Shown: positions 1-54,210 of the stretch, one piece after another
Layout of the letters: each line of letters opens with the position of its first letter
Position numbering within the stretch: position 1 is the stretch's first letter
Assembly (NCBI GenBank): GCA_963693365.1
Contig: CAVNZM010000008.1
Coordinates: forward strand, 2,294,001-2,358,000
Length of the DNA stretch: 64,000 nt
Reading direction: 5' to 3'
Origin: Amoebidium appalachense
Taxonomy: Eukaryota > Protista > Ichthyosporea
Program-made: the position numbers and the translations under genes
Notes under the pieces: model-generated
What the model saw: the letters and a program-made list of their open reading frames with translations, nothing else
What the model was told of the DNA's origin: nothing
Database searches by the model: none

Positions 1-3702
<3,702 letters not shown>

Positions 3703-4614
3703 ACCTGCATTGAATTTCTTCGTTGTGTCACAACACATGTACACCCGAGACTCCAGGCAACCCGGGGCTTCAAGCTTCTCCCCCTTTTTAATGGAACTGA
3801 AGCTTTATTGAAAAATTTGTGGGAAGAGTTGTTCGTGTGTTAGATTCTATGTGATGTAGAACACTTTGACCAATAGTTCTGACAAATCGACTGGGTATGG
3901 GTGCGCTTTTGGGAGTTGTGCAGTTAACGCTCAAAAGCAGATGCTTCGACATTTCTGCAACAGATTAGTGAATGGCAAGATCAAAGTTGAAAGTCAAAGA
4001 TTTACGGATGCCAAATACTTCTACACATAAATACAAAGCTTTGTTCAGAAGGACTCCACAACACTTGGTTTCACATTGGATTGTCAGTAGCTTTTTCGAT
4101 TTGACCAACTGGGTTGGGTATGAATAGATGTCAATTATCAGAGTGTTCACCATGGCCCTGGCCAACATCACAATTAATGCCATCCATCCCAGCCACTCAC
4201 AAATGTGCCCTGGACACACAACAGGTCAACGAAACAACGACATGTATTGCTCTGCCGTACACGTATCGTATTGCCAGAATCTCCTATGGTGGGTTTGAAT
4301 TGGAGCAGGCCTCGTATACCTTGAATAAATATGACCCTTTTTTGTGTGCACATGCATGTTTGTATGATATCCAGTCAGCCGTATTGCAACATGCACGCCA
4401 TCGACATGAGCGTATGTGTACATGTACAGCTAATTCTTTGCAGACCACAAACTACCAGACTACCGTACACCTCTGGCTAGAGTGGCTAACAAGCAAACAA
4501 CATTCACATGTGGTGGCACATGTTGGCTGAATATGCACAGGTGCTCCATGCATGCCATCACAATAGAATACTCATCCACGTCATCAATAACCATTCCTAT
4601 TGGCTGCGTCCTAC

Positions 4615-5310: not shown

Positions 5311-5893
5311 CTGGAGATGGGACCCCAAACGGGGACGGAGCCAATGGCATACAGCAAGGAAACAACGGTGGGGGCCAGGTGAGATTAACACGGGCGTAGC
5401 TGCTTCTAGTTAGTTTATTAGACGCCCCAACGCCCGTTTCCCCCTCTCCCCCTCCCGTCCCCCCTCCCGTCCCCTCTCCTCCCCGTTCCCCCGCCCGCTT
5501 CCCCCCCCCCGGGACGGCACTCCCCCCCCCTTCCCCCTTAACAACCAGGAAACCTTGTCTCCCTCTCCGCTCATTACTTTGCACACATCCCTGTCTGTTA
5601 ACCATGTCGTGCTTGTCTATAACATTTACCTTGCACTTTGCTATATGAACCAACCTCGTCTTGGTGCTGCCTCATCACCAACCACTGGTCATATCAGCGT
5701 TCGAACATTAGGAGCAACTTTTTCCTCTCCACTCATAGTTGAATGACACTTGTTTCAGTGCACCTGCTCATTTAATTTTTCTCAGCTATTGCGCCTTCTT
5801 GTTTTGAGGAGAGTTGGGATGTCAGTTTTGTTTGTTCTCACCTGTTTGCTTTGCATCTGATACCTCCTGATCGTTTTTCTCTCACTCCCACAG

Positions 5894-6638
5894 CTCTACG
5901 AGAATGTGAATGTCCAAGCGCTGAATGCCCAAGCTCTCCAGGGTTTGCGAGTGCGAAACATGGTACAAGTTGCTTTGGACAACAGCTCAGCGAGCAATTT
6001 TTCTTTACAACAAATAAACACACAAGGAAACCTTTTCCAAGGAGCATCCAGTGGTAGTTTCATGGATAGCCAAGGAGACCAAGCAGATTTTCAGACACAG
6101 TTTCAAAACCAACAGAAAGCGTTGGCGCAAACACAGCAGCAGCAACAACAGCTAGCTCCCCAGCAACCATCCTTGAACCCAACATTTCCAAACTTAGCTG
6201 AACTGTATTTTGGCCAGCAAGGATTACCAGCTCAACCGCACATGTCTGTTGATCCATTTAGAAACCAGCCTGTGTATGACCCAACAGGGTCGCAGTTCCA
6301 GCAATTTTCGGGTCGGCCGAATGGGCAAGAGCAGGGGGGCAATGCTGCCCAGATGGCTCTTACGAATGGATTGTCACTTGTTGGGCAGGTATGATATGAT
6401 GTTTTTGAAGTCCTGCCAGTGGGTACTGATTTCATGTGTCAAGAAAGTGTAATGTGGTGGGGTGTAGTCCATTTCGGTAGCTCTTTTATTTTTTATCGTG
6501 GTTTAGCTTTTCCTTGCAGTGTCGTGCTCTCTCTCCTTCGTTATTTTCCTCTTTTATCTTTTATCTCTCTCTCCTCTCTTTCTCCCCCCCCCCCCCCCTC
6601 TTTCTCTCTCTCTCCCCCCCCCCCCCCCCCCCCGCCCT

Positions 6639-6692
<54 letters not shown>

Positions 6693-7986
6693 ATCTATCT
6701 CTCGCGGCACTCTCTCCCTCTCTCTCGCACTCTCTTTCTCTCTCTCCCTCTCTCTCTGTCCCCCCCACCCCCACCCTTCCTCTCTATCTCCTCTATTCTC
6801 CCTCTTTCGCTCTTTGCGTCCTCCCCTCCCCACCCTCCCCCCTCCCCCCTGTCCCCCATCTCTCGTTTCTTCCCTGATTCTGTGTCCCCTGTTCCCTCCC
6901 CTTCCCCAGTGCATCCGGTTCCTTTGTTTCTTCTGTTCTTCACTTCCCTTCACCTCCATTCGTTCCCTTTCCTTCTTGTGTGCCCCTTCATGGCTGTAAG
7001 CAGACTCATTCAGCCCTCTCCCTCCCTCTCTCCACCCCTTCCTCTCTGCCTTCCCGCCTGTGTCTAATTCGCCTTTTCTCTCTGCCCACCTTTCTCCTCC
7101 CCCCCCCCCCCCCCCCTCTCCCCTTTGAAAGATCTGCATCACACACACAGACACACACACACATGTGAATATAAATATGTAGTTCTTCCTGTCTCCCTTC
7201 CTCTCCATCTTCCTTACCCCCTCTTCCTCCCTCTCACATGCTCACCATCATCAATCCCCCCTCTTCTTTCCCACCATTTATTTTGCTCTCTTTCTGAGCC
7301 CCCGCCCCCCCCCCCCCCCTCCCTCCGGGTACTGTGGATGACGTGGGCCCCCCCTGAGGATGGGCTCTGCTTATTATGCATACTCTTTATGTATGGCTTG
7401 CATTCTGCATCGTGTTATCCGTTTGTTCTTGTGTACTTCGTACTTTTTGACGCATTCAAAACCCCCCTCCCCTCCCTCCCTCCCTCCCCCCCCCCCCCCC
7501 CCCCCCCCCCCCCGCCCGCCCGCCCGGGGCCGTCCCCCGGTGCTGTCTGCAACCTTTTCCGTGTCCCCTTGGCCTTTCTAGATTAGTATGAATAGGCACA
7601 CACCTTCGTGCATAGTTTCTTTGGTAGTGAGCATATGGACGTGTACTTTCCTATGCATATCCTAATCGGCCACACCAGACCCATGCACGCACGCACCTGC
7701 TCATCCACTCACTCACAGTCTCTCTTTCATGTGTGTGTGTGTGTGTGTGTAGTCTTTCATGTGTGTGTGTGTGTGTGTGTAGGTGTGTGTGTGTGTGTAG
7801 GTGTGTGTGTGCGTGCGTGTGTACGTGTGTGTGTGTATGTAGGTGTGTACCCACACGTATGTTCATTTCTGTCTCCCTATTTTCGTTCCGGGCCCCCATG
7901 CCTCACGCAGATGACTAACACCAGCACACAACCACACGAACACAAATGACTTGCATGAGCAGCAGTGCGTACACCACACGTGGGCG

Positions 7987-8069
<83 letters not shown>

Positions 8070-8949
8070 CTTGGGAGCTTCTCCAGCATATCCAACATGT
8101 TATACGGGCAGGGCTCAGCCGGCCTCTTGCGCGCAGGGGTTGGTGGGCTTGGTGTGTCATCTATGCCCAACCTATCATTGAATATGGGCGGAGCTGGGGA
8201 TCTGCTCCAACCGCAGCTGAATTTGGGCTCAAATTCTGCACTGTTACAAGCACAACAGGTGCTTATGCAGGTAGGGGTGTGTGGGGGTGTGTGTGTGTGG
8301 GAGGGGGGGGGGGGGGGGGGGGGGGGGGCAGGTTGCGGGAATGTGTGTGGGTGGGTAGGTTTGGCTTTGTGGGTGCGGGTGTCCTTGTGGTTGGACATGG
8401 GTGGGTGTGTGTGTGGATGGGCAGGTCTGGATATGGGCGTGGGTGTGGGTGTGGTTGGGTAGGTGGAAATCGGTGTTTGGGTGGGTGAGTGGGTGGGTGG
8501 ATGGGTACGCGGGTGTGTGTTGTCCTTGTTCGAGGGAGAGAGAGAGACACACACACAGAGAGAGAGGGAGAGAGAGGCCGGTGTGTCTGTCTGTGTGTAT
8601 GTGTGTATCTGTATGGGTAGCAGGCACTTGTTTTCCTATGTGCGTGCGCGTAGTGGGTGTCTCGACCACCACTATTCCTCTCTTATATGGCATCACATCT
8701 TTACCTCTTGATGTTTGTTTCTATTTGGTATTATTATCTACCCATTTATTTTTTCCGTTGCAACGGGTATTCGCGCTCTTGCAAACAGCATACTTATGGC
8801 TGCCGTGTTACAGTCCTACAGTACGTGCAGCAGCTTTTTCTGATCTGTGTTTTTTTTTCGTTTACATGTCTTGCTTAATAGGTTAATCTGACCGTTTCAA
8901 ATGGTCAAATTCAATTCCTTCGTGTATCATATTACGTCTAACTCATACA

Positions 8950-8999
<50 letters not shown>

Positions 9000-9064
9000 C
9001 TCTTTCTCCCCCCCCCCCCCCTCTCTTCCAACTAAACACACCCACGAACACACACACACCCACC

Positions 9065-9108
<44 letters not shown>

Positions 9109-10117
9109 CACACACACACTACAGCAGCCTTTTCTGATCTGCAATGTCCCACCCAACTCCTACTTTTACCCATTATTAAGCCGATCGCCTCATCGCTTTA
9201 TCTCCATTGGCTAACAACCTAACCACCAAACAGCAACAACAACAGACACAGGCACTCCTCCAGCAACAAGCCCAACAACAACAGCAACAACAACAAGTAG
9301 AGCTACTCCTATTGCAACTACACGCCATGCGCCAGCGGCAACAACAACAAATCCAGTCGCTTTTACAGACGCACCAACTAGAACAGTTGGATTTGTTGGC
9401 GAGATTACAAGCGGCTATGGGAGGGGCAAGTATTATGCCGAGCACACAGCCCACCACACCTACAACACAACAGCAACAGCAGCAGTCTGTGCCGCATACA
9501 CCCCAGAGGAGTGAAGATGGGGATATGAAACTTCAGCAGGCAGATGCAAACCAACAGGTAATGCAGACACACAAACAGCTGGGCACGTGTGGAGGAACAG
9601 CTACACATGTACACGTTTAGACTCAGGACATATTCTAACCCGCAAGCATGTGTATGCACAACATGCACGCGTTTGCTTGTACACGTGCACACATGAGGCA
9701 CACACAGGTAGAACATAACATATATGGGCGGAAACACACATGTGCAAGCACAAGCACATGCACGAAAACACTTGCATACACACACACAGACACAAATATG
9801 CACAAAAGATATTCAACACTCCCAGGATCGTGCTAATGCACAGACACGCACATCAACATGAGCACCTGCATGAACACAGGCGCACACATGTACACGAAAC
9901 CACACACACACACACACACATGCGCGCGCGCGCATGCGCGCAAACACACACATGCACATGCACATGCACCACTCACACACACAAGTACGCCTGCAGACAC
10001 ACATACACATGTGCACATGCAACACAAGCACACCCACACACACACCACACACATATTCTTTACCAGCGCATGCGACCGCGTGCTCGACGCGCACCCTCAC
10101 ACACACACATTCACTTC

Positions 10118-10148
<31 letters not shown>

Positions 10149-11761
10149 CCCTCCCCCCCCCCCCCTCACTCCCTCACTCCCTCCCTCCCTCCCTCTTTCT
10201 CTCTCTCTTTCCCTCGCCAATTACAAGACACAGAGACAGGCACATACACCACACACAAACATGTAAAGCACGTCAACCTAATAATGTGGACGTGCAGAAC
10301 ATGCTTGAAAACAGACACCCGCATTCCCCCCCCCCCCACCCCCACCCCCACCCCCACCCCCCCCCCCCCTTGTCCCGCAAAAAGCCTGCACCCCTTTTCC
10401 TGTCTGCACGGTCCTGTTCATAAAAATGCATGCTCTGACCATGCCCACACAACCAAACATCTACCCACCAAAAAACCCTAACTCTCAATCTATCGAAATT
10501 CCCAGCCCACCACCACAGCACCGCCGACACCCCAGAAAACACCCAACGAAGTTTCCGAAAACACCAACGGGCAGACACAGACCGGCACCTCACTAACCCA
10601 AAATCCGCAACCAAAATCCGGAGGCAACCTCCCACCCCCCACCCCCACCCACGCACCACCACCACCACCACAACAACACACGGCACAAGAAACAGCACCC
10701 CCGAAACAACAAAAAACCAACGCCAAACAACAAACACGCGCCACTGCACCCGCAACGAACACACAGGGGCAAACACAGGACAAAACACAACATTTGACGC
10801 AACCGCGGGGAAAGGTGCTAGGAACAACGCCCCCAGGCACACGACCAACAAGCCCACAACCTACACAGCCACCACAACGCCCACCAAGCGCAACCCCTGC
10901 AAGCCCAAAACACGTACCCGGTGCACCACCTTTTCCACCCATGCACATGCCATATATGCCGCCACCACACATACCATGGTTTCCGGGGATGCCCCCCCTC
11001 CGTTTTTAGTTCCCCCCGGCGCATATCCGGGACCCCCGCGCCCCCCAGGTCCTATGGGGATGTATTCTGTAAAGGGTGCTGTGTCTTCGGAGAAGGATGG
11101 GTCGGGTGATCATGAAGGGAGTGGGAATGATAGCGATAGTGATAGGAGGAGGGATGATGCAATGTATTCGACGGAGGAGAGTGAAGCGGTGTCACAGAAG
11201 AGGGAGAGAAACTCGGCTGCTTCGACAAGGTTTAGAATGCGGAAGAAACAGAAGGTGTGTAGGTGTGTGTGTGGGGGGGGGGAGGGGGGGAGTGGGGGTG
11301 GGAGTGGGGTGGGGTGGACGGGTTGGGGGGGGGGGCGGGGGGGGAAGGGGGGGAAGAGGGGGGGGGGGGGACCGGGGGGGGACCGGGGGCGGGGTAGGGG
11401 TGTGGGTGTGGGTGGTGGGGGTGAGCGGGGCCGATGTTGTGTGTGTGTGTGCATGTGTGTGGGTGTTGGTGTGTTCGTGTGTGTGTTTTGTTTACGGCAG
11501 ATGGGCTGTATTTCATTGTTGGTGATGCATGTGTGTGCCTGTGTGTGTTGTGCCTGCTCTGCTTGCGGTTAAAGAAGGGGGGGAAGGGGAGGGGTGGGGG
11601 GGGGGGGGGGGGGGGGTGGATGGGGGGGTTCGATTGTAATCGTAGTGATGGAGTGTTTGTTGTGAAAGGAAAGGGGGGGGGGGGGGGGAGAGAAGGGGTC
11701 GGTTGGAGAGGGGAGGGGAAGGGTTGTAGAAAAAGAGAGAGACAAAGAAATATGGAGAAGT

Positions 11762-11818
<57 letters not shown>

Positions 11819-11821
11819 CCA

Positions 11822-11862
<41 letters not shown>

Positions 11863-12493
11863 ACAATGTGTCCTTTACATCGTATGAACCTTTGGCCTGA
11901 GAGATGGTGCAGGCTGTTACAGGGAGGCAGCATGTGGTGCAGTCTGGCAGGAAGGAAAGAAGAAGGGGAGGGGGGGGGAGGGGGGAAGGGTATGCTTTTA
12001 CCATAGAAATGCATGGATGGGCGTGAGGGAGATGACGGGAAAGGTAGTGATTAGAGATAGGCTCGAGTGTGTAGGTGAAAGGCATGGGGGTTGGGGGTAT
12101 TAAATTGTGTGGGTGTTCAGACTTGCTTGCATCGGTGTAAGTTCGAAGTTTTTGATGTGTTGTTGACTTTTTGTGTTTATACAGATGTTGGAGCTGCAAC
12201 GTGCCACCCAAGAAATGGCCAACAAATGCAACCAACTGGAACAAGAGTGTGCAGCCCTCGAACAGGACGTGACTAGGCTGAAGGCAAGATTGACCCACGG
12301 TGCGGAGGTGAAGCAAGAGCCCAATGCGGATGGTACCTCCATGCAGATGCAAGGGGGGCAGGCAAAACCGTATAACTATCAAGAGCATGCCGCAAAGTTT
12401 GGGATGGTGCGGGGAGGGGGGGAACAGGGCGCGCGTGCCGGGGCAGGGAATCAACGAACGGGGGGAGGAAGCAAACAAAAACAGCAGAAATAG
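5894..12493 (+). CDS. bZIP transcription factor with Gln/Pro-rich N-terminus (MetR/Cys-3/Zip1-like basic region)
   Basis: Exons 5894..6388, 8064..8270, 9234..9557, 10506..11254, 12185..12493, all phase 0. Basic region [19 protein letters not shown] is spliced to a zipper with heptad L/M ([36 protein letters not shown]). One extra C is needed in the C7 run at 10992-10998. The start may be ATG 5645 via small upstream exons (uncertain). Confidence 0.88.
7326..7465 (+). mobile_element. Poly-C-terminated interspersed repeat, 140-bp copy
   Basis: Identical by eye to 43908..44047. Embedded between C-rich tracts in a bZIP intron. Confidence 0.85.
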
Positions 12494-12693
12494 TGGGTGT
12501 AGGGGGTGTGGGTATTAGGTGGGAGAGTATAGCTGGATACTTGTGTGTGTTTGGTTGCGCATGTTGTGATGGTGTAGAACGTGCGCGCATGTGGGCCCCG
12601 CGTGCGCAAGGTAGCTATAGCTATACACACGCACTCAGACACGACGCTCGCGCACCTCTTGCCCCCCCCCCCCGGCCGTCCCTCACCACCACA

Positions 12694-16336: not shown

Positions 16337-16410
16337 AAAATTAGCCCACATATCCGAAATCTTCGTCATTTACATGTATTCACAGAGCATTTTTTCCTAA
16401 ATTTTGGGTG

Positions 16411-17248
16411 GTAGTGAAAGTTGAGCTGCCAAAACTGTGCCCTCCACCCGCCAGCGTGGTACGGCAACACTTCTTCGTCTTTGTCTTGTGGTGGGTTCTT
16501 GAGTGGGTGCTTGTCTGGGATGGCAACAACAATGCACACTGTTTCAAAACTTACGGATTTACAGTCGTGGATTGCCAGCGCCGCAGCTACTCCCTCGGCG
16601 CCTTGACACTTCTTGACCAAGCGCGTGGGGCCGCGCGTGGGGCCGAGGCGCTGCTCTGTTGCAGAGAATGGGAAAAATGCGAAAATCCCTGTGGAATTTC
16701 AAAAATGATTTTGTGATTGATCGGCATACCTGGGCCGTTAACTAATTGCCGAATGCCGATGCCAGGATCAGACTCAGGGTCACAGAGAAAGTCCGACAAG
16801 TTTTGATGCAGCCGCCGCGGAAGAAGAACAACAACAACAACAACAAGAAAACAAAACAAAACAAAAAAAACAAAAAAAAACAAACAAAAAAAAAAAAAAA
16901 AAAAAAAAAAACGCACACACATTACATATTACTTGACGCTAGCAAATATTACATAATAATTGACGCTAGCATCCAGCGTGGAGCATCAATTAACCGCTTT
17001 ATGAATATATCTATTGATGAATAGTAGCCAATAAGTTTATTAATTTTGCGTTCTGATTGGAAGGTATTTATAGGCGCTGGCACCATGGCAATGGGCTTTA
17101 GCCCATCTCTCTGAGTTTGAAGTGTTTTCAAATTCGCATCTTCCTCTGACAAGACACCACCACTAGCAGGAGTAACGATAAGTGTGGGGCTTGGCATGTT
17201 CGAATCAGTGTTTGCGCTCGAGGAGCTGTAGTTGGCGTGAGCTGCCAT
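16411..17248 (-). pseudogene. Rolling-stone-like membrane protein gene, copy 1 (5' fragment only, interrupted)
   Basis: MAAHANYSSSSANTDSNMPSPTLIVTPASGGVLSEEDANLKTLQ matches copy 3. Resumes after a ~540-bp insertion as IHDCKSVSFETVCIV…EEVLPYHAGGWRAQFWQLNFHY, then similarity stops. Confidence 0.75.
16573..17116 (+). mobile_element. Non-autonomous Helentron/Helitron2-like element
   Basis: Absent from paralog copy 3 (empty site ggaTTTgaag). Terminal tgccagcgcc (16573) with subterminal inverted ggcgctggca (17073-17082), then hairpin atgggct-tt-agcccat (17091-17106). Both junctions are in T runs, with no classical TSD. Confidence 0.6.
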
Positions 17249-17551
17249 TATAGCGGGTAGGCGATTGCTGTGGAATAAGCGGAACACAAAAAAACAACAC
17301 AAAAAGGTAAAAAGCATTTGTGGAAGATTAAAGTACGTTGAAGTACTGGTTACAAAAGAGCTGCCTTGCACAAGCACGAATCAAATTGTAGTACACTACG
17401 AACTCCTTTTGTTCTCGCTAAGAAATACTATAAAACATGTGGCTAGTTCACGATGGGCTTATCAGTAGTAGTATGTACATGGGCAACCCATAAAAGGCAA
17501 TAAGCATATGGTGCCGAGGAAAAAATAGTCATCATAGGTGAGCCCATCTAG

Positions 17552-19489
<1,938 letters not shown>

Positions 19490-20814
19490 GATAGCGGGTA
19501 GTCGATTGCTGCTGGAACAGCCCAAACACAATTCGAACAATAGAATGCAGCGAGAATGGTTTTTCAAGCTTTTCAAATGAGTGCGTGTCGGAGTATATAC
19601 TTGTTGGTGCGAGCATACAACCAATCACAAGAGGCTGCAAAGCATTGTCCAATCGTTACAAAGCTGTCAGATCCACGAATCAGAAGGCTTTTGATCAGAT
19701 GACGGTGGTGTTGCAGCACTGCTCAAACAGCATCCTCCCCCCCCCCCCCCCCCCCCCTCCGCCCCCTCCTCCTTCTCCCTCCCTCCCCCCCCCCCCCCCC
19801 CTCCCCACCCCTACTATTTTCTGCTGCTTTTGATCACAGTACACAATCTTCCCTCTCCCTAAATATCACTCTAAGAGTCTACCTATAGCGTGACGATTAC
19901 CTAACTTTGACTGAGTCGCGAATCACGACATTCCACGCGGTCCAATCACACTGCACCGCCGCACCGCATTCCACAGCGCGCAGAGCGCACGGAGCAAAAA
20001 AAAAAAAAAAAAGGTTTAGTTGAGGTAGTTGATAGCACATTAATTATTTACGTAAGGCACCAGAAATTCCATACAAAAATACTAAAAGAAATAATTCTAA
20101 GCTGTTCACGATGGAAAGCGTAAACAAATATAAGAAGACTCCAAAAAGAATGTAAATTCTTGCAAATTGTTGCACGTGGAATCCGGCCCGTGGTCAGAGA
20201 CTCAGAGGGCCGTGCCACCAAGCCCAGTTGCAACTTGAGGCGACGCGTGCGCCGTGTGCCACACCTGGTCTAGCCCCGCTGTGGCCCCAATCCGTGGGTG
20301 TACATACAGAACAACCAGAGGATGTACTCTTGTAGCGTTCAATCTTGTTAATGCTTTACATCATGTACGGCGTTAAATGGTTTAAGTTTTTTGATTGCAA
20401 TGAGGGCACTTCTGGGTCGTGGAATGTAAAGATAGACATTCCAGAGATGACAACATGAGCCTTTTAGATCTTCATCAGGTTAGTACAGCCCAACATTATA
20501 AATTGTTTAATGTACAGAGGGTTTTGGAATCGTGATATTTCTTATGAAAATGGAATAATGTTTCTATAACAGTAATTTTGATTCAAGGGAAAGGAAAAAA
20601 GGAAGGGAAGGGGAAGAGGGTCTCTCAAGATGTGCATGGCAACAAAACCTTAGGAGCCTTCTGATTCGTGGATCTAACGGCTTTTTGGAGCTTTTTAGTC
20701 TCTTTCGATTGGCTGTAATGTCTAATCAACACGTAAATAAGCCTACACCCATTCACTTGTGTTGTTTCTTTGTGTTCCGCTAGCTTATTCCACAGCAATC
20801 GCCTACCCGCTATA

Positions 20815-22888
<2,074 letters not shown>

Positions 22889-23214
22889 CTAGATGGACTC
22901 ACCTCTGGGCACGCTACTAGCATGACCATGATGTTTATTGCCTTTTATAAGTTCCCCATGTACATATTACAGGTCATGAATTGAGCACACCTACCAATAT
23001 GAAATTTCTTAAGGAGAACAAAAAAAGTTCCGATAGCTTACTAATTTAGTGCATTTGCAAAGCAATTCTTTGCAAATAGTGCCGGGTTATAGCTTATGCC
23101 TTCAATTTGACTAATCATTCTAACTGACAACGTGGCACTGTGTGTATCCCGGAACCACCGAAATGTTTTGATAGAAACACTGTGCAAATGCATTTAAATT
23201 ACATCACCCGGAGA

Positions 23215-27462: not shown

Positions 27463-29416
27463 CTACATAGCCGAGCGCATACCCAACCACCCAAATACCG
27501 CCTGGTACGGTGTACGTCTGGTTGGTGCCGGCTCCGGTACCTGGCTCGTATCCATCTGCATGTGCTCCTGTGTGTTTGCACCCCCATCCGGCGGCCCTTC
27601 CACCATCGGAACATAACCGTTGTGGTGTCCCGAGCGATCCGATTGCGGCGTCTCAGTCTCCCCGTAGCTTGTTTCGACGATTGTCGGTGGTGTGGGTTGG
27701 TAGGATAGGCGTGAGGGGGGTAAACGCTCCGGCATCTTATACATGGCCCCGTCCGGCTGGGCCTCGTACATGCGCATCTCTTGGAAACGTGGTGGCACGT
27801 GCGTGGGTGGTGGTGTAGGCACGTGAGTGCGCATGAACGGTTGGACGGACCGTGCATAAGATGGAACGGGTTGGGGTTTCGGTGGTGGAGGTGGGGGGGT
27901 TTCTTCAGGGGGTTGCTGGGGTGCCTCGGAGCTCCAATGGCCCATAAGTGATCGGTGCACTCTTGCAGGTGACCGTGCATGCATTGCTGCCCCACCAACC
28001 TGGTACGGATGTACACGTGTTTCCTGCTTCGTCGGGGGGGTGTATGGTGCCGGATCGGGTCTAGGAGGACTCACTGTGTCCTGGAATGGCCGGAAAAACC
28101 CACGGGACTCGCTCGAATTTGTCGACCGCCCGGAGCTTAGGGTTGGGGATGGAGCCGTGATATCGTGCGGGCTGTACGGGTGCACATCGTGTTGTTGCTG
28201 CTGCGGTGGGTATAGGGGGAGCGACAATCTGGATCCTGATTGGAGATCCGGCTGGGAGCTATATAGGGAATTCGGGCTGTGGTTGGGGGGTCGGTGGTGT
28301 TGCTGTTCCGGGGGATACGTATAGTATTCAGCCGGGGGCCCCATAACCGGTTGGGCATATTGGGAGGTATCGTGTGTGGACTCTTGTGACGGCCGTGCAT
28401 GCAGGCTCATATGCATCATGGCCTGTGGTAGAGTCTGGTTCTGACCCGACCCGACTCGTTGGTCCTCCCATGTGTTAACCCCCTCCGCAGTACCCCAGTA
28501 TCCCCCATGCGACGCGCTGTTCACCAGGTGTGGATGCGATGAGTGTTGTTGTTGTTGTTGTTGTTGTTGTCCCTGATTCTGTCCTGGGCCAACACGTGCC
28601 GGGGCGGAAGCACGTGCCTGTGTGTTTTGTGACTGTTGGCGTTTCTTACGTGCGGCTAAATTTAGCGGCAGTGGAAGGGGAAGCCATGTGGCTAGTGTAG
28701 ACTGCTGTTGTTGCTGGGGCGGAGGGGGCTCGGGCATGGGCTGGGGGGCCGGAGGATGTGATTGGTCCGGTGGGGGTTGATATTGGCCCATCTCCACAGA
28801 GCGAATTTCGGACGGGGGGTGTTGGTGGTGGTTCGGGACCGGGGCCGGAGAGTGTTGCTGGTGCTGTGCTATTAATATCGAATGCACGGACGCAGGTGAC
28901 GCCGCCAGTGAATAATGCGGGGACGGGGTAACATTCTGCGGGTTACGATACGCCATGTCGGGTGCTGGTGCGGGGGGTGCCTGATCCACTTCCATATCAT
29001 TTGATTCCATAGCCGCTGGAGCACTTGCTCTAGCCGCATACTGGCTGTGTTTGCTCTTTAAAAATCGATGGCTCCCAAGGAGCCTCCGTGGGCCCGGAGC
29101 CGGAGCCGGGGGTTGGTACGGTGCTGTGCCCCCAGAGCCGGTAGGAACCAGGGAGGAGCCTTGGGAGGGCGTTTCCAAACCCCCCATAGGTTGGGGTCCC
29201 CCTACTGGTTGGACCCCACCTTCGTGTGAAATTGGTGCGGGTATGTGTTGAGGTGGGTGTTGTTGCTGCCAATTTTCGTTTGGGGTGGCGGGGCCCATGC
29301 CGGCATCGGCTTGTGGGTGTGGCTGGCTGGGTGGCTCGGGAGTAGGTTGGGGTGGGGGGTTGTTCGATTCATTGCTAGAGAAGTTGAAGGGACGGGGGAG
29401 CATGAAGAAAGGTAGC
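27463..29416 (-). CDS. Long terminal exon encoding ~650 aa of Pro/Gln/Ser-rich disordered protein
   Basis: ~1.95 kb open frame almost free of microsatellites, preceded by a CAG acceptor at 29417-29419. In-frame ATG at 29403. No globular domain recognised. Confidence 0.8.
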
Positions 29417-29533
29417 CTGGGGGGTGGACAAAACATTAGAACACATAGGCACACATCTGATTCACGTGCTGGTCATATGGCTCGTGTTTGCACGCGTGCG
29501 TTTTGAGTGTGTGTGCGTGTGTGTGCGTGCGTG

Positions 29534-29634
<101 letters not shown>

Positions 29635-29802
29635 TGTGTGTGTGCGTGCACACACACCCAGGTGCCAAAAGGAGGGGCACAGATAACAAGGGCAAGGGGA
29701 AAAAAGGAATGGGCCAGTCGAGGAAGTTAAGGATTGAGGGGTGGAGAGGGAGGAGGAGAGGAGGGGGAGGGGGCGGTGTTTTTTTTTTCTGGTTTTTTTT
29801 TT

Positions 29803-29852
<50 letters not shown>

Positions 29853-30015
29853 GCAAATCAACGCTCCACACCCACCCCCTGACAACAAGAGCAGAGGGAG
29901 GACAAGATTGTGTGAGCCATGAGAAGGTGTTATGTGTGGTCAGGAAGACGCTCATGGGAAGAAGTGTAAGCCATAGTGGGCAGCAGTCAATTGGTGGGCG
30001 GTCGGCGGGTGGGCG

Positions 30016-30057
<42 letters not shown>

Positions 30058-30363
30058 TGTATGCGTTAGAGGTTTGAAAGAGGGAGTGGGGTGGGAAGAG
30101 GGCGCCAGAGGCCGGAGGGGGGAGGAGGGCAGAGGGGGAGGGGGGGGGGGATGTGTCACGGAGTATAAAGTTCACATTCACGATGGACAACACAGTGCAA
30201 CTTAGGGGGGGAAAAGAAAGTTAAAAAAAAAAGAGCACAAGGGGGTTGCAAAGGCGCTCTTAGTGCAAGAAAGGTGAACAAGGCACCAAAAAGGGAAAGG
30301 TGAAACCGTTATTTTTAGGTGTGTGTGCTTGTGTGTTTGGAGAGAGGGAGGGGAGGCGGGGAA

Positions 30364-30394
<31 letters not shown>

Positions 30395-30493
30395 GTCAGG
30401 GAAGAACACAAGACCATAACCCAGAGTCACCAACAAAAAGGTCCTCTAGCCGAACCCGTCAAGAGGAGGATCTATACAGGCTCATATAAAGAA

Positions 30494-30530
<37 letters not shown>

Positions 30531-31216
30531 AAGCATCCTACTCGAGCCCAGATGCCAAGCAGATGCAAATGACAACAAAAATTCGCCTTTTTGATATCGT
30601 ACAATTATACTAGACACACCAGCTGCTGCTGTGTTATACACATGCCTACCTCCCCCCCCAAACACCTCCCTCCCCCCCCCCCCCCCCCCCTCCCCTCCCC
30701 TTCTCATCCCCTCCTCCCCCCCCCCCCTCCTTTTCCCCAACCTCACCTTCTCCCTCCCATTCTCACACACACACTCTCTCCCTCCCTTACGCCCGTCCGC
30801 TTGCACAACACAACCCCAAAGGAACTCATTCAATTCCCTACCTATGAAATCCACACTGAAACCCCAGGACAAAGATGCATATCGTTACAGACCATAATGG
30901 TAAAGAAAAAGGAAATCAGGCAAACGGAGAGGCCAGAAAGAATAAGGAGAGGAAGGCTACAGGGGTAAGTAATAAAGGGTACAAGGGAGGGAGGGAGGTA
31001 AATATGCAGGGGGCCACCGGAGGCGGGGAAGGGGGATAAAGGCAATTGAGAATGAGCAACAGATAAACCAAGGCACCAAAAACAAGTGCAGAGAGAGACC
31101 TTTAAACACAGCCCATCAACGGGAGGAGGGGAGGGGAGGGGCGGGAGGATGTAATAGAGCAAATGACTTAGTCGCACAGACGGATATTAGGGGAGAAGGG
31201 GGATGGGGAGATGGAA

Positions 31217-31249
<33 letters not shown>

Positions 31250-32374
31250 GAGGGGACACAGGAGTGTGTATATGTGCGAGTGTGTTCAGGACTCTGCATG
31301 CACCCCTCCCCCCTTTCCCCCCCTCCCCCTCTTTCTCCGACCACTTGCAGAGAACTCACAGCAAGGCTGAAAACGTCAAAGGCGCCAGAAGGAAGTAGTG
31401 CTGAGGGGGCAACAGAGGAGGGAAAACAGAGAAGAGAAAAGAGTTGGGGAGTGGCAGGGGACGCCACAGGGGGACGGGGGGGGGGGGGGGGGGGTATGCA
31501 TTGAAGGTGGGAAAACCATGGGCTTGGGGAAAAGGAGAGAGGTGAGGGGGGGGAAAGGGGGAGGGTGGTTACAAGGCAAACCCCTTAACGGGGATGGGCA
31601 GACGGTGCCTTACAGCACCGAAGAGGGAGTGTCAAGTGTGAAGAATGAGCAAAGATGACTAAGAGAATGAAAAGAAAGACAAAGCAAAAAGAAACTCACA
31701 CAGCTTGCGAATCGGAGAAAACTAGAAACCGAGACACCATGGACAACGTGCGGAAAGGAAAGGAGTGGAAAGAAAAGGAGTGGGCGATAGGGGGGACAAA
31801 AGAGGGACACAAGCGCAAGGATGAACAGGGTAAGAGGCGCGAGAAAGAGGGGGGAGGGGGGGGGGAGAGAGAGGAGAGAAATCGAACCAGGTACAAATTT
31901 CGTGGCTCATTCTCTCTTGAACAAATTAGAAAAGGAGGTTGCACGACACAGGTGTGTGTGTTTTGTGTCAAAGAGCGGCCGTACGCCATGTGTACATGAG
32001 TGCGTACGCGAGTGTGTTTTGTGCAGTGTGTGGACCCGAGCGCTCGAGTGTTTGTGTGCATGTCTGTGTGGGTGGGTGCATGCACGTGCATGTGCGTGCG
32101 TGGGTGTTGCGTGCACCTGTGGATGATGATTGTGTCCGTGTGCGTGGGAGTGTGTGTGTGTGTGTGTGTGTGCGGGTGTGTGCAGCTACGTGTGCATTCA
32201 TGCACACCTGAACTCTTGTGTATGTTCGTGGGTAGTACTGATTGGCACAGGGTACATTCCTCGTCAGTGAACTTGCAATTCTGAAGGAGACGCTGCAAGA
32301 GCCAACATCTACCGTTACCACCCCAGCACTTTGGTGGAGTACCACAAAACAAACACAGAACATGTATTGCTCAC

Positions 32375-32514
32375 CTTCTTGGTGGAGGCTCCTGCCTGGT
32401 TTCTGGTTGAGGGGTTTGCGCATTTTGAGGGTTCTTCTGGCAGTTCGGATCACTGCCATCACAGCGGATGTGTGTGTCCTGGCAGTGCTTACAGCTAGTG
32501 CGTTTTCGTGCCAT
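32375..32514 (-). CDS. Probable first exon with partial Zn(II)2Cys6-like motif; possibly the 5' end of the 27463..29416 gene
   Basis: MARKRTSCKHCQDTHIRCDGSDPNCQKN…PPR followed by a GTGAG donor. Spacing Cx2Cx6Cx6C. Several small AG/GT-bounded candidate exons lie between 32300 and 30400. Confidence 0.55.
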
Positions 32515-34662
32515 GTCTAAGCTGTCCACACAGCACACACTAAACAGAGTGAAATGGGGCAACACTGGGGGTGTCCATTCGCGCCAACTAGAAATTTGTA
32601 ACTGCCTGCACTGAATTACAGGTCAAAGAGCCTAAACGAACTACGACGCATTTCCACCCGGAAAAAAGGTGGGAAGAGTTGACTTGGGTGAAGTTACCTA
32701 ACGTAGAAACTAGAAACGACCTGAAATAGTCCTTAGGAACCAACAGACAGCCGCCTTCGAATTGGACGAGAGAACGAAGGTCCCTGCAGCAGTTTTCTCC
32801 GTATCAAAATAGAAAAGCGGCGCCAAAAAAAAGTTTCTGCATATCATATTCAGAAAGGGGAAAAAAAAATTAGAAGCTAGGAAACGAAGCTGTGGAAGCT
32901 CCAGCTGGTTGTGAATACCACAGCGCTCAGAACCGAAGAGCAACATAAAAAAAAAAATTAAAAAAAAGTGCACGACCGTATGTAGGTGCAAGTTGCATGC
33001 GGCCTGGTGCTGCGAATGCGGTGTGACATGTTGTAGGCCTTTGCCCGGTATGACTGTGACATAGCCAAGAGGGGGGGGAACCTAAGAGAGCCAAATAAAA
33101 ATTGTTGGCTGCAAACGTAATTTAACTCAGCAGTATAATATTGGATTAGTTGCCATACTTTTGTAATTTGTTTTAGACATAAAATTTTGATTTGGTAAAA
33201 TGAAAATAAATCTTTAGGTAGCCATGGGCCACACGCCATCGTAATACCGTATGCCCGTTTTCAAAAGTTCGTAAATTGTCCCGATTGCTAGACCCCAAAT
33301 TCATGGAGAATAAGGGGACACCTCCCGTGAAACGATTGGTCGACAAGTTACCAATCGGGTTTGGGCAATGGTTGATCATCGAATTCCACGGTCACGCGGC
33401 AAAGGAGCTCCGATCAGCGACCACGTATACGCCTCGTAGACACCCACGTGTCAGCTTGAGTTTGAATATAATAATAACGTCAAAATCAAAAGGAATGAAT
33501 AATCTGAAGTTTTCACTTATAATTCTTAGGCACATTATTCCATTTATGGTTTAGCACCCTCGAGCACGGCTCTGCTAGTGCACACTTCACACAACTGCCC
33601 GGATTGGGGTAGAGTTTGGGGAGACGTTTAAGATTTGAGAAAAAGCCACAAACCCGATGTTGGCGCCCAAACAATAACTGTAGTCTAAAATTTTAGAATT
33701 GATACTAGATAATTGCATCGCAATATTGAGATCCAAGGATCAAGACAATCCTACAAACAAAGCGACACGGCTGTTTATGATACTAAAGCAATCACTGAGC
33801 ACTTATGCTTTCAAAAATATTTCTGTTTTTTTCGTATCCAATCAACACGGCTTCAAACGAGCCGCATATGGCCGGATACGTTTAACAGTTGCAGGAACTT
33901 TTGGCGCCAATGATTCCACAATAAACAAACACCGGCCCGTTTTCACGAGCAAGTTAGGGAACAACTTAAGAGAAAGAGAGATTGAATATAGTCTTTTCAT
34001 AGAAAGTTGTTGCCGTTTTATTAAATAGCATCAGGGAAGCGAGAAGGTAAAAAAGGAACAGAGATATGCCCCCCTTTTTGGTTGGAGGTAAAGTTCGGCT
34101 AGCCAAGAAATGAATGATAAGTTGTGAACTACTGCAGAGCACTAACTACCTTGAGAAGAGGAAAGTACTGAAATACTTTAAAGGCCAATTATAGCCACAA
34201 TATTCCTACTTTTTTTATTGTTTTATAAAAACTTATTCCAGCAGGCAAGTGCAGAAACCTAGAGGCAACAGGAGGAACAGTTACTTGTCGAAAAGTGTGA
34301 TAGGAAGAGAACGAGGGCGTGTGTCCAAAAGAAAAAAGGTGGGTGTAGGTGAGATAATTTGAAAAGCAAAAAGGAGAGGGGGGAGGGGGAAGGGGGGAGG
34401 GGAGAGAGAGAGGGAATTGGGGACTAGGGAGGGAGAGTGTTTGGGGCGGGGGGGCGGGGGGAGAGGGAGGGGGGAGGGAGAGGGAGGGGGGGGGTAGAGA
34501 GGGGAGGGGGGGGGGGGAAGAGAGAGAGAAGAGAGCGAGGGAGAGAGAGGAAGAGAGAGAAAAAAACGACGGCAATGGAAGGGGGGAGGAGTGGGGGTGG
34601 AGAATGAGAGAGAGGGGGCAGGGAGGTGGACACGGGAAATGCAGGGGGGGGGGGGGGGACGG

Positions 34663-35479: not shown

Positions 35480-35527
<48 letters not shown>

Positions 35528-35681: not shown

Positions 35682-35721
<40 letters not shown>

Positions 35722-35922: not shown

Positions 35923-36004
<82 letters not shown>

Positions 36005-37248: not shown

Positions 37249-39989
37249 TTTCCATACTGACTCGGTTGGTGTAGTATGTCGATCGATACCACTAGTGATT
37301 CGATTCTGTGGAACATTTATTGGCTGCATGGGCCATGGGTGGTGACTGATATCATCGGCTGGTGTTATGGTGGCATGCCTAGTTACCTGGCACATGCATA
37401 ATCGGTTCATATTAGGGCAAGGTCCGTATCTACCTTTTTCGACGCGATCGAGGTTGATCCGATCGAGGATTTCAAATGAGCCTGACACGGGTATGACTCT
37501 CTCGAATCTATCGATCATAATTACGCAATGAGGGTGTAACGTCATTGGGCCTCTTTTTACGTCACCCCTCGATAACGTCATTATGATCGATAGATTCGAG
37601 ACATTCACAAGCCGTGCCAGGCCTATGTGAAATCCTTGATCGGATCAACCTCGATCGGGTCCAAAATGGTAAATATGGAGGTTGGCATAAGTTTGCTGAT
37701 GTGCTTGGCCTTTTTTGGCTGGCAAGAGTGGTTGGAAGCTATGTGGTGTGTGTTGATATGGCATGGATACGGATATCCGATAGATGAACACCACCACCAC
37801 GCTGATATATGCTCCATACCACAAGAATGTGCTGGATATTTACGTTCTCCTCTATCCCTACCGTGAGCCTGCATGGCATATTTAGCATGTAGACTGAAGA
37901 AACCATCAAAAAACACAGGAAACATGCTTGCGTGCATGTAATTGCTGGCTGGCAAGAAGATGCAGAATGACTGCATTTGTGTATGTGCCTGTGAGTGTGT
38001 GTGCACACATTTTGGGGTGGAGGAGTGTTGGAGGGGAGTGGTGGTGGTTTGAGGGGGAGAGGGGGGGGGGGGGGGGGGGGGAGGGGGGAATGAGGGGAAA
38101 TGGGGTAGGGAAGGGGAGGGGGGGGGGGAGGGGGGGCTTTTTCCTGAGTGGTGGGTGAGCTTCACTTGTATTTTTATTTTAACTTTTATTTTTTTATTAT
38201 ATTTTTTTTTTGCCCTTTGCTGTTCTGACAGGGTGCTTGCCCCTGCAGTTACCGGGGCAGCGCAGGTCAAGTTTCTGACCCAAGACGAAGAAATGCTGCA
38301 CCGTGCCGCGGAACAATTTCTGGGCAAAACTGTAAATTAACCCCCCCCCCCCCCCCCTCTCCCCCTTTCTTTTTCCCTCCCCTTTTTCTCTAAGTCTCAT
38401 AGGTGAAACTCTTATGAACGCGGGAAATATGTCTGCAAAGTCGTCTGCGTTTTCATTGCTGCTCCTGCGCAAACCCGTTAGCGAACCCACCCACTACTCC
38501 CCCCGCCATTTTTTTCCCCCACCTAACATCAAAAATTATAAATCTTAAAATATCCATTCCAAATATTCTTCCTTTTCCGTTTGTGTGCGTGGGTAAAGCC
38601 ATTAACAACCCACTCTTTCCTCTCTTCTTTCCTTTTTTTCAGCTCAGCTCTTAGAAACCCCGTGACTAACTCAAATGTTTTCGTGCCATTCATTGTCTTG
38701 TCACAATCCATTTTCCTTTTCCTGTTCTCCTTTTCCCGGATTTTCGATAGTTGAAGGCATAAGGTTGCCCCATTTTTTTTCTTGTCGTATTTCGTTTTCC
38801 GTTTTTATTTTCCTGGTTTTTGACTGTCTGGACAGGTTGCGGAGGTGCAGAATGTGGTTCTGCAGACGCTGGAGGGCCACCTACGGGCCATCTTGGGGTC
38901 GCTGACTGTGGAGGAGGTCTACCAGGACAGGGAGAAATTCGCACAGCAGGTGTGTGTGTGTGGGCGGGTGTGTGTGTGTTGTGTGTGTGCGCGTGTGCAT
39001 GTGCGTGTGTGCGTACACGTGTGTGTGTGTGTTGTGTGCTTGTGTGTTCTTACTTGTGTCTGTGTCTGTGTGTGTGTGGGGGGGGGGGGGGGGGAGGGGG
39101 GGGGGTTGGCGGGCGGCTGGGAAGAGGAGTAGGGAGGGGCGGAGGGCAGGAGGAGGCTGGCTTTAGTGTGTGTGTGATTGAGTGTGGGTTGGTGTGTGGG
39201 TGGAGTGGGACGATGAGAAGAGCAGAGGAGTTGGAGGGGAAAAGGGAGAGGAGGACTTGAGGAGTTTTGGGAGGTAGCAGCGCGGGGGGTGGGGGGGGGG
39301 GGGGGGGGGGGGGGGGGCTGTGGTGGAGGGACTGCCCCAAATAGGGTGGAGGGGGGAATTGTTTGGGGGAGGGGGGGGGAGGGGGGGGGGGGGGGGGGGA
39401 TGTGGAGGAGAGTCTCATGGAAGGATGTGTGAATGGTATAGTTGGTACCGTAGGGAATGTGGGGGGGGGGAAAGAAAAAGATTAAGAAGAAAAGAGACTG
39501 AATTGAAGTTTTCTGACGGGGAAGAGTGACTGTGGGAGCATATGTAACAACTAGGAACACAGCACAGCCAGAAACACGAAACACACAGTCAAACACATAT
39601 GCACACACATTGTCTGTTTTTCTTCCATTCTTTGCCTTCCGTACCCTTCCGTCGTGTCTCTCTTTCTATCTCCCCCTGTCTTTCCATCTCTCTCTTTCTC
39701 TGCATGCCCCCCCTAACCCCCCTCCCCCCTCTTCCCTTCGCCCTCCTCCAAACACACACACACACACGCACGCACACGCACACACACACACACCTTGACT
39801 GTACCCAAAGGTACGGGAGGTAGCGGCACCCAATGTAGCCCGCATGGGCATCGACATTCTCAGCTTTGTCATTAAAGACGTCAGTGATGAGGTGAAGAAC
39901 CCCCCCCCCCCCCCCCCCCCATGATGCATACTCTGTGTGCGTGCTCTCACAGAAATCTGCAATGTGTTTTTTCCGTAGAAAGGGTCTCT

Positions 39990-43695: not shown

Positions 43696-44341
43696 GCCGT
43701 CCATGCAGTACCTTTGTCGTTTCGATAGCTGTATGACATTGATTCAACATCATGCAATGCTATCACGCACTGAGCAAGCTTCACATATTGCTGCACGCAG
43801 ATATCCCCTCCCCCCCCCCCCCCCCCCCCCTTCCCCCCTTTCCCCCCTCCCCACCCACCCACCATCCCCACCTACCCCACCCACCCCAAGGGGAATAGGT
43901 CGAAACTCGGGTACTGTGGATGACGTGGGCCCCCCCTGAGGATGGGCTCTGCTTATTATGCATACTCTTTATGTATGGCTTGCATTCTGCATCGTGTTAT
44001 CCGTTTGTTCTTGTGTACTTCGTACTTTTTGACGCATTCAAAACCCCACCCTTCTCCCCCTCCTCCTCCCTCCTCCCTCCCCTTTGAAGAATGGGCTCTA
44101 CTTATGATGTATGCTGTGTGAGAAAAATCGGTATTGTGCTGTCGGTTGCAAATGTGTTCTTTTTGTACGCTGTAACACATTCAAAACCCCTTTGCCTTCC
44201 GTCCCGTAGTCTGCCTGACTCCCCTTTTTTCAATGGTAGTGCATCTTCCTCACTTTTCCTTCTTGTTCTATCTCTTCCACGCTCACCATATTCCCTCTCA
44301 TTTTATCCATTCTTCCTTTTCGTGTTATATCTTGTTATGCC

Positions 44342-44423: not shown

Positions 44424-44605
44424 CATTCATGCGTGGTGCTCTCTAATGCAACACCTACATTGTATTGTCCGTCGTGAAGGTGTACTTCGTTCTCTGAACA
44501 CATTCTTACCCTTCTTCCCCCCCTCCCCCCCCCCCCCCCCCTCCCCTCCCCTCCCCCCGAAAACACACACACACACACATGCACGCACACATGCGCGCGT
44601 GCGCG

Positions 44606-53221: not shown

Positions 53222-53323
53222 AGGTTTGGAACGTGTTATAAAACACGAAGTACACATTCATAACGGACAACACTGCAGAGTGCAAAGCACACAAAGTGTA
53301 TACATAATAAGATGAGCCCATTC

Positions 53324-53325
<2 letters not shown>
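53222..53325 (-). mobile_element. Diverged copy of the poly-C-terminated repeat
   Basis: The reverse complement reads aagaatgggctcatcttattatgtatac…tgtgtacttcgtg…cacgttccaaacctcccc, between G tracts on the + strand. Confidence 0.7.
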
Positions 53326-53949: not shown

Positions 53950-54210
53950 ACGACAGGAAAAAAGAAAATGGATTTATTAACAAAAAAAGACATTACGGCA
54001 ACTTTGCCCCACGGTAAAAAGGGAAAAGGGAGGAAGTAAGAAGTCAAAACCGGGGGGGGTGGGGGGTGGGGGGGAAGAAAGTGTTATAGGGTACGTAAAT
54101 GCGCACATGAGGGACAACACAATGCAGAGTACAAAGCACACATACGAAGTATTAAAAGAGGGAGCTGGGCTGGGGGGGGGGGGGGGGGGGGGGGGGGGAA
54201 GGGTACTTAC

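What the first reader, a model, noticed from the sequence alone, without database searches (positions are those of the whole stretch)
7326..7465. Candidate poly(C)-targeting or poly(C)-tailed retroelement family
Seen: an identical 140-bp sequence lies in introns of two unrelated genes 36.6 kb apart (7326, 43908). Shorter copies at 977 and 1014 share exactly the same 3' end (…gacgcattcaaaa + C run) but have different 5' truncations. Diverged relatives at about 354, 905, 1610, 3040, 44085 and 44460, and on the minus strand at about 30150, 53222 and 54080, also end at a C tract on their own strand. Most start just after a C tract, and some form tandem stacks. Known: a fixed 3' end with variable 5' truncation is the signature of target-primed reverse transcription, and some R1- and Tx1-clade LINEs target microsatellites. 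Inference: this is the 3' UTR of a recently active element that inserts into, and may regenerate, poly-C. That would link it to the extreme poly-C/G density here. I know of no element with a poly-C rather than A-rich tail, but cannot exclude one.
Basis: partly seen in the sequence, partly recalled or inferred. Interest (0 to 1): 0.8.

Follow-up and report, generated by a model that had tools for sequence, protein, structure and literature searches.

The report
Poly-C-targeting Penelope-like retroelement stubs
These are short, 5'-truncated ends of a very abundant repeat that sits in runs of C inside introns; it is likely a Penelope-like jumping gene that inserts into existing C runs rather than carrying a poly(C) tail, a habit already described in green algae.

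Summary
7326-7465 equals 43908-44047. Fourteen family members lie in the window; 12 examined end within 6 nt of one 3' end while lengths run from 31 to 155 nt. In public contigs the family is very abundant, runs on 5' beyond the window's longest copy, and its best-supported 3' ends continue into C runs. The C run looks like target, not tail: exact target-site duplications with non-C letters bracket three insertions (3 of 144 flank pairings, all true pairs), and the longest young copy's four 3' Cs lie inside its 5-bp duplication. Only 14 of 135 long C/G runs touch a member. (C)n targeting with 5' truncation and partial tandems is published for Chlamys Penelope-like elements (PMC8557442), and our 3' end shows the reversed hammerhead half-cores seen in octopus Naiads. 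The RT and endonuclease could not be reached, so membership is likely, not proven. Verdict: real, probably a new member of a known kind, in a host group (inferred unicellular animal relative) where my searches found no report.

The parts
43889..44043 (+). Longest young copy (155 nt), in a flotillin intron; 5'-truncated at 43889
43884..43888 (+). Left target-site duplication CCCCA (right copy 44044-44048)
44044..44048 (+). Right target-site duplication CCCCA; holds all four 3' Cs of this copy
43901..43906 (+). Second half of a hammerhead core (CGAAAC), followed by a near-palindromic short stem
   Evidence: (13.3 bits, E 4.5, below cutoff)
43904..43917 (+). 3' arm of a predicted 14-bp hairpin whose 5' arm lies in the upstream 30 nt seen only in contigs
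   Evidence: reverse complement printed, compared by eye with the loose end
43936..43942 (+). First half of a hammerhead core (CTGAGGA), downstream of the second half; start of the block kept by older subfamilies; preceded by an internal C7 run; also the stop codon of the only open frame
7326..7461 (+). Young copy (136 nt), intron of a Q-rich bZIP-like gene; C-rich on both sides, no exact duplication
976..1006 (+). Young copy (31 nt), upstream member of a partial tandem
1013..1098 (+). Young copy (86 nt), downstream member of the partial tandem, joined through C6
960..975 (+). Left 16-bp duplication around the 976-1098 tandem
1099..1114 (+). Right 16-bp duplication around the 976-1098 tandem
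44084..44186 (+). Older copy (67% to young family), 5-bp duplication CCCCT (44079-44083 / 44187-44191)
2962..3109 (+). Older copy (60%) with an internal insertion like that of an abundant sister subfamily
53225..53325 (-). Older copy (69%)
54077..54157 (-). Older copy (63%)
347..401 (+). Older 3' fragment (64%)
910..947 (+). Older 3' fragment (68%), stacked upstream of the young tandem
1605..1663 (+). Older fragment, weak
30151..30200 (-). Older 3' fragment (68%)
44436..44507 (+). Older 3' fragment (58%)
39921..39985 (+). Doubtful member: follows a C run but does not reach the family 3' end

Best explanation
These are 5'-truncated 3' ends of a high-copy repeat family lying in C runs, likely a Penelope-like retroelement of the Naiad/Chlamys type that would insert by target-primed reverse transcription. 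Shown: fixed 3' end, variable 5' end, C-rich flanks on the element's own strand, exact duplications of 5, 5 and 16 bp, a partial tandem, and young and old subfamilies with the same target. Inferred: a GIY-YIG endonuclease nicks the G strand of a C/G tract; the freed G-rich 3' end primes reverse transcription at the RNA's 3' end, perhaps by pairing with a few terminal Cs; synthesis usually aborts after 30-160 nt; the cDNA joins the upstream flank, often through the element's internal C7; second-strand nicking at a variable distance duplicates part of the C tract. So the 'tail' is duplicated target. The last about 155 nt are likely structured non-coding RNA.
For: 3' offsets 0-6 nt with lengths 31-155 nt in 12 of 12 aligned members. 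Best-supported 3' loose ends in contigs are C runs: 45 contigs in X1 and 23 in X2 after AAAA+C6. Suffix-prefix matches of >=5 nt holding a non-C letter: 3 of 144 flank pairings, namely 43889 with itself, 44084 with itself and 976-left with 1013-right. 5,488 contigs of X1 and 1,639 of X2 lie on 43884-44340, summed depth about 1e6 on the element against 7-21 on the unique flank (the tool says this is no copy number). PMC8557442: Naiad/Chlamys show 5' truncation, partial tandems, (CA)n and (C)n targeting, and lack canonical hammerheads; 'HHR_half_core' = first half-core in the 3' UTR with the second 35-50 nt away on either side. Here the second half starts 35 nt upstream of the first; both halves in a shuffled 155-mer 0.03%; no Rfam hit at cutoff. 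The 3' ends of Naiad_Ovul and Naiad_Obim show, by eye, the same ordered motifs GTCGAAAC, CGTGGG, CTGAnGATGG, GTATGGCT before the microsatellite. A 14-bp stem with two G-U pairs links 43904-43917 to the upstream loose end, and a sister subfamily has A at both wobble Gs (by eye).
Against: No RT or endonuclease was seen: no genome is held, the window has no RT or GIY-YIG Pfam hit in 170 frames scanned (20; 150, nearly all from the 392 candidates), and contigs gave only 30 nt beyond 43889. The octopus likeness is by eye, post hoc, and limited to 2 near-identical families; of the 8 'half_core' families 3 that I saw (Smim, Hpol, 3_Nbra) have the halves in the normal order. The two-half pattern occurs in 11 of 100 whole-window shuffles. 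No inverted 5' copy and no 30-40 nt tail was seen among the best-supported ends (38 loose ends not shown). The frame 43889-43939 is open and its variants are synonymous or conservative, which fits a coding end instead. 7326 and 53325 have no exact duplication.
Confidence: 0.6

Rival explanations
1. A target-specific non-LTR retrotransposon (Tx1, R1 or CRE/RLE type) or a SINE that borrows its 3' end, inserting into C runs by the same priming mechanism.
For: Fixed 3' end, 5' truncation and variable-length duplications are shared with non-LTR elements; microsatellite-specific non-LTR families exist (abstract of PMC4640811; Tx1/R1 examples are recalled). The young family ends in AAAA.
Against: AAAA is constant in length in 5 copies and absent from most older subfamilies, so it is not a poly(A) tail. 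Hammerhead half-cores and the Naiad-like motif order point to Penelope-like elements.
Confidence: 0.17
2. A canonical Penelope-like element with a C-terminal GIY-YIG endonuclease: 43889-43939 would be the last 16 codons plus stop and 43940-44043 a 104-nt 3' UTR.
For: Only this frame is open through the upstream loose end and on to 43937; common variants there are G>G, P>P and V>L, while the other frames give stops or harsher changes. By eye the residues fall as Y/L, V, G-x-N at +3/+4, +7, +14/+16 of the E..W-I..L....G-x-N end of PLE endonucleases (alignment), with N ten residues before the stop.
Against: The catalytic E position lies one codon beyond what the contigs showed; T+9, P+12 and the hydrophobic +15 do not match. 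No GAAA half-core follows CTGAnGA in the young copies, whereas canonical hammerheads are said to be universal in these clades. A 26-codon open frame is common by chance, and the hairpin explains the G-to-A changes as well. Two protein searches found nothing (one search had no power for long targets).
Confidence: 0.14
3. A rolling-circle (HUH) DNA element such as a non-autonomous Helitron/Helentron or Replitron, with one fixed end and imprecise other end, inserting orientation-specifically at C runs.
For: Subterminal hairpin; orientation-specific insertion, and variable duplications were reported for Replitron-1 and some Chlamydomonas Helitrons (PMC10288648 passages).
Against: No terminal direct repeats, no CTRR end (recalled Helitron feature), the hairpin is >125 nt from the fixed end and missing from most copies; most HUH elements make no duplications.
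Confidence: 0.04
4. The element adds a non-templated or slipped poly(C) tail on insertion and so creates the genome's C tracts.
For: Consensus 3' loose ends are long C runs; the right flank of 7326 is longer and more C-rich than an exact duplication explains.
Against: 43889 and 44084 copies have only four 3' Cs, inside exact duplications; 5' flanks are C-rich in 9 of 14; 121 of 135 long C/G runs have no detectable member.
Confidence: 0.05

Closest known systems
Chlamys Penelope-like elements of Chlamydomonas and relatives (Craig et al. 2021, PMC8557442)
   Same: (C)n targeting, frequent 5' truncation, partial tandems, no canonical hammerhead, consensus 3' ends in A-A-C-run.
   Different: Host here is not a green alga (inferred unicellular holozoan); copies seen are only 31-155 nt; exact duplications are discernible; no sequence likeness shown; RT, CxC, IFD and endonuclease unseen.
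Naiad_Ovul / Naiad_Obim (octopus Naiads, 'HHR_half_core' for Ovul; PMC8557442 File S1, S5)
   Same: Reversed hammerhead half-cores with the same ordered short motifs in the last 110-150 nt, ending at a microsatellite (by eye).
   Different: They target (TA)n, not (C)n, and live in an animal; likeness not measured by alignment.
Canonical C-terminal-endonuclease PLEs (Penelope/Poseidon, Neptune, Hydra)
   Same: 5' truncation, variable duplications, microsatellite bias in Neptune and Hydra; half-cores carry the extra base after position 9, a G10.1/C11.1 pair and a near-palindromic loop 3 as in PLE minimal hammerheads (PMC4209133 passages).
   Different: No complete hammerhead in the normal order, no stem I; no 30-40 nt tail seen; reported almost only from animals.
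Microsatellite-targeting non-LTR retrotransposons (Tx1, R1, RLE clades)
   Same: Target-primed insertion into simple repeats, 5' truncation, stacks at one site (largely recalled; abstract of PMC4640811 seen).
   Different: No variable poly(A) or repeat tail here; hammerhead half-cores present; no (C)n-specific family came up.

Membership tests
Retroelements that insert by target-primed reverse transcription | Fixed 3' end with variable 5' truncation | tested here: met
   3' offsets 0-6 nt, lengths 31-155 nt in 12 of 12; contig 3' ends at AAAA+C
Retroelements that insert by target-primed reverse transcription | Variable-length target-site duplications | tested here: met
   5, 5 and 16 bp; 3 of 144 pairings, all true pairs; absent or ambiguous at the other members
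Penelope-like elements (all) | Telomerase-like reverse transcriptase | not testable with these tools
   No genome; contigs show only 30 nt upstream
Penelope-like elements (all) | Partial tandems forming pseudo-LTRs | tested here: inconclusive
   976-1006 + C6 + 1013-1098 inside one 16-bp duplication fits, but two nested insertions fit too; no full-length copy to show a pLTR
Penelope-like elements (all) | Inverted 5' copy or 30-40 nt tail in some insertions | tested here: inconclusive
   None in 14 window members or in the best-supported ends; these features are optional and 38 loose ends were not shown
Naiad/Chlamys (N-terminal endonuclease PLEs) | N-terminal GIY-YIG, CxC motif, RT with insertion-in-fingers | not testable with these tools
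Naiad/Chlamys (N-terminal endonuclease PLEs) | Insertion bias for microsatellites, (C)n in Chlamys | tested here: met
   11 of 14 3' flanks and 9 of 14 5' flanks C-rich against 5.8% background
Naiad/Chlamys (N-terminal endonuclease PLEs) | No canonical hammerhead; core halves sometimes present and displaced | tested here: met
   No Rfam hit at cutoff; half-cores 35 nt apart in reversed order; only the last 185 nt could be examined
Canonical C-terminal-endonuclease PLEs | Complete type I hammerhead in the pLTR | tested here: not met
   No GAAA after CTGAnGA in young copies, no stem I partner; applies to the terminal 185 nt only
Canonical C-terminal-endonuclease PLEs | ORF ends in the GIY-YIG E...N motif | tested here: inconclusive
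   Partial by-eye match, E position unseen; searches empty
Non-LTR retrotransposons (LINE/SINE) | Variable poly(A) or simple-repeat tail separate from the target duplication | tested here: not met
   AAAA constant; 3' Cs inside the duplication at 43889 and 44084
Non-LTR retrotransposons (LINE/SINE) | APE or RLE endonuclease with non-LTR RT | not testable with these tools
Helitron / Replitron | CTRR 3' end with adjacent hairpin (recalled), or short terminal direct repeats; mostly no duplications | tested here: not met
   3' end is CATTCAAAA, no terminal direct repeat, duplications present

The most novel reading that the evidence does not exclude
A Naiad/Chlamys-type Penelope-like element in a unicellular relative of animals whose telomerase-like RT primes on G strands and slips on, or extends, terminal Cs, so that thousands of aborted insertions lengthen and multiply C tracts and keep renewing their own target: an interstitial, telomerase-like maker of poly(C).
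Probability: 0.08. Interest if true: 0.75.

Novelty: new member of a known kind. Interest (0 to 1): 0.35.

Why it matters
If the Penelope-like reading holds, it extends (C)n-targeting elements of this kind to a lineage between the green-algal Chlamys and the animal Naiads, which bears on where the N-terminal-endonuclease clade arose. A young, very abundant family with readable duplications in a C-rich genome is also good material for the open question, stated in PMC8557442, of how these elements choose microsatellites. It is not a new tailing chemistry: the evidence points to duplicated target.

Tried and rejected
Whole-genome search: no genome held. JGI metagenome scan with a 32-nt 3' motif: 0 matches. 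Protein searches with the 40-residue frame 43817-43936: none at E<=10 among 141 longer candidates, but a simulation shows an exact 16-residue match would score E 41-130 in proteins of 400-900 residues, so this is no evidence; no candidate among 22-70-residue proteins; ESM Atlas no usable hit. Pfam scans found no RT or endonuclease in 170 frames. Rfam: 0 hits at cutoff in the window; a 3'-half Hammerhead_1 match at 13.3 bits, E 4.5. A functional type I or type II hammerhead was rejected by eye: no stem I partner, and the sister subfamily breaks stem III. An ATG at 43942 opens a 35-codon frame to the 3' end, as does one in 53325, but the two end in different registers, so I rejected a downstream ORF start. 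No RNA holder is on record; contigs of two runs guessed to be RNA hold the element, which does not show transcription. Empty sites could not be tested: both flanks are low-complexity and the two read-laying runs went to the ends. Sense-strand bias: 13 of 13 members (39921 left out, also sense) lie sense to five gene models read by eye, but 123 of 182 runs of >=6 C/G in those genes are sense C; P 0.006 per copy, 0.14 per gene: inconclusive. A fold of the predicted 14-bp hairpin and an alignment to the octopus Naiads were not computed; both rest on comparison by eye. Literature searches for a Penelope-like element in unicellular holozoans and for poly-C-specific non-LTR elements listed none.

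Full report
Observation. The window is eukaryotic, intron-rich and full of simple repeats: 135 runs of ten or more C or G. The 140 bases at 7326-7465 and 43908-44047 are identical and the identity stops there on both sides. The last four bases are flank Cs. An iterated profile gave 14 members at E<1e-4 among 16 hits listed at E<=5, with a best E of 1.8 on the reversed window; eight copies were seeds and match by construction. Four copies (976, 1013, 7326, 43889) are 99-100% alike; the eight older ones aligned are 58-69% identical to them.

Ends. In the alignment of 12 members (1605 and 39921 left out) the 3' ends fall within 0-6 nt of each other while lengths run from 31 to 155 nt. Eleven of 14 have at least 12 C in the next 20 nt and 9 of 14 in the 20 nt before the 5' end, against 5.8% of all 20-mers; none is G-rich. 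Twenty of 24 listed public runs hold part of 43884-44340. Laid on that stretch, 5,488 contigs of X1 and 1,639 of X2 fit, with summed depth near 1e6 on the young element and 7-21 on the unique flank. The tool warns that this is no copy number, and X1 may be the source of the window; with four young copies in 64 kb I infer thousands genome-wide. The family continues 5' of 43889 with a common 30-nt consensus in X1 (72 contigs), X2 (30) and X19, so every window copy is truncated. On 968-1066, the best-supported 3' loose ends are C runs (45 contigs in X1, 23 in X2), with no shared non-C continuation among the rows shown; 38 rows were not shown.

Target or tail. I compared the left flank of each of 12 members with the right flank of each. 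Exact suffix-prefix matches of five or more bases that include a non-C letter arose in 3 of 144 pairings: 43889 with itself (CCCCA), 44084 with itself (CCCCT), and the left of 976 with the right of 1013 (16 bp), which brackets the two as one tandem unit. At 43889 the four 3' Cs lie wholly inside the duplication, so that young insertion has no added tail. Other members show only C-only overlaps or none. A few terminal Cs on the RNA cannot be excluded. Only 14 of 135 long C/G runs have a same-strand member within 40 nt, so the family as detectable does not explain the poly-C density.

What class. No genome is held and the window has no RT or endonuclease hit, so the class rests on the 3' anatomy. 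PMC8557442 (abstract, sections 9 and 20, passages, and supplement parts 1, 2, 5, 53-55 plus searches seen) describes Naiad/Chlamys Penelope-like elements with 5' truncation, partial tandems, (CA)n and (C)n targeting and no canonical hammerhead. Thirteen of 49 families on its Chlamys sheet are listed as (C)n, and three such consensus ends that I saw finish in A-A-C-run. It also defines 'HHR_half_core' elements whose second half-core lies 35-50 nt to either side of the first. Our element has CGAAAC at 43901 and CTGAGGA at 43936, reversed and 35 nt apart; both occur together in 0.03% of shuffles of the 155-mer, though the pattern appears in 11 of 100 whole-window shuffles. Rfam gives nothing at cutoff and only a 3'-half Hammerhead_1 match at E 4.5. 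The ends of two octopus Naiads show, by eye, the same ordered motifs; three other half-core Naiads have the normal order. The half-cores carry small traits of PLE minimal hammerheads (PMC4209133 passages) but no stem I, so I do not predict self-cleavage. By eye, 43904-43917 pairs over 14 bp, two of them G-U, with the upstream loose end, and a sister subfamily has A at both wobble positions; its own upstream arm was not seen.

The coding rival. Frame 43889-43939 is the only open one, and the common variants in it are synonymous or conservative. The residues partly fit the end of PLE GIY-YIG domains (alignment), but the catalytic E position is one codon out of reach and three other consensus positions fail. 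Protein searches were empty, and one search lacked power. I keep this as a rival within the same class.

Mechanism. Shown: fixed 3' end, truncation, C-run context on the element's strand, variable duplications, persistence of the target across subfamilies about 35% apart. Inferred from established PLE and non-LTR biology: endonuclease nick on the G strand, priming of reverse transcription at the RNA 3' end, early abortion, 5' joining aided by the internal C7 before 43936 (two older copies and several contig ends start there), and staggered second-strand nicking. PMC11167929 (parts 1-2 of 4 read) shows target-primed insertion by a purified PLE protein without need of hammerhead cleavage.

Host and novelty. 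The window encodes a BTG/Tob protein, flotillin, a weak bZIP and a weak, incomplete Zn2Cys6-like motif; the nearest named BTG hit is 38% identical, from a frog. I infer a unicellular relative of animals; the species is not established, and an animal host is not excluded. Searches listed no Penelope-like element from such hosts. A paper on a TE-rich ichthyosporean genome has no occurrence of 'Penelope' in its main text (PMC11244446, passages only); its supplements and repeat library were not read and may bear on this. bioRxiv 10.64898/2026.07.22.740005 (part 1 of 5) and PMC10288648 (passages) were read for the retrozyme and Replitron alternatives; neither fits well. The scan's own index had nothing on this sequence or genome; one word-search note concerned another genome.

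Verdict. A real, young, very abundant C-run-targeting element; target-primed retrotransposition about 0.9 likely, Penelope-like about 0.75, Naiad/Chlamys type about 0.6. The habit is published, the poly(C) tail is not supported. New member of a known kind; interest 0.35.

Noticed in passing
window 62348-63999, minus strand: Two successive frames match DUF5906 and phage DNA primase profiles (E to 1e-12), profile positions 493-622 then 630-803, so one viral-type primase-helicase gene split between two frames at the window edge; possibly an endogenous DNA virus or Polinton-like insert.
   Followed up: partly
window 16400-22970: A cluster of direct and inverted duplicated segments (71-100% identical; 17119-17277 equals 20786-20944 inverted), apparently three or four paralogues of a membrane-protein gene in both orientations; no clear Pfam hit.
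   Followed up: partly
window 49911-50375, minus strand: BTG/Tob family gene (Pfam E 8.5e-29), few close relatives in the protein search.
   Followed up: partly
window 32374-32622, minus strand: Zn2Cys6-like motif with only four of six cysteines (Pfam E 7e-4, below cutoff), upstream of a long Q/P-rich exon at 27466-29472.
   Followed up: no
five gene models at 1-3705, 5800-12500, 27466-32622, 35260-47900, 51500-55290: C runs of >=6 are mostly on the sense strand (123 C against 59 G), and all family members are sense to their host gene.
   Followed up: partly
window 44114-44265, run X6: All 20 listed differences of X6 contigs in the unique flank are C>T or G>A, which looks like base conversion of the library or heavy deamination rather than ordinary strain divergence.
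   Followed up: no
window 43963-43997, runs X1 and X2: A contig in each run carries a 35-nt internal tandem duplication of the element.
   Followed up: no
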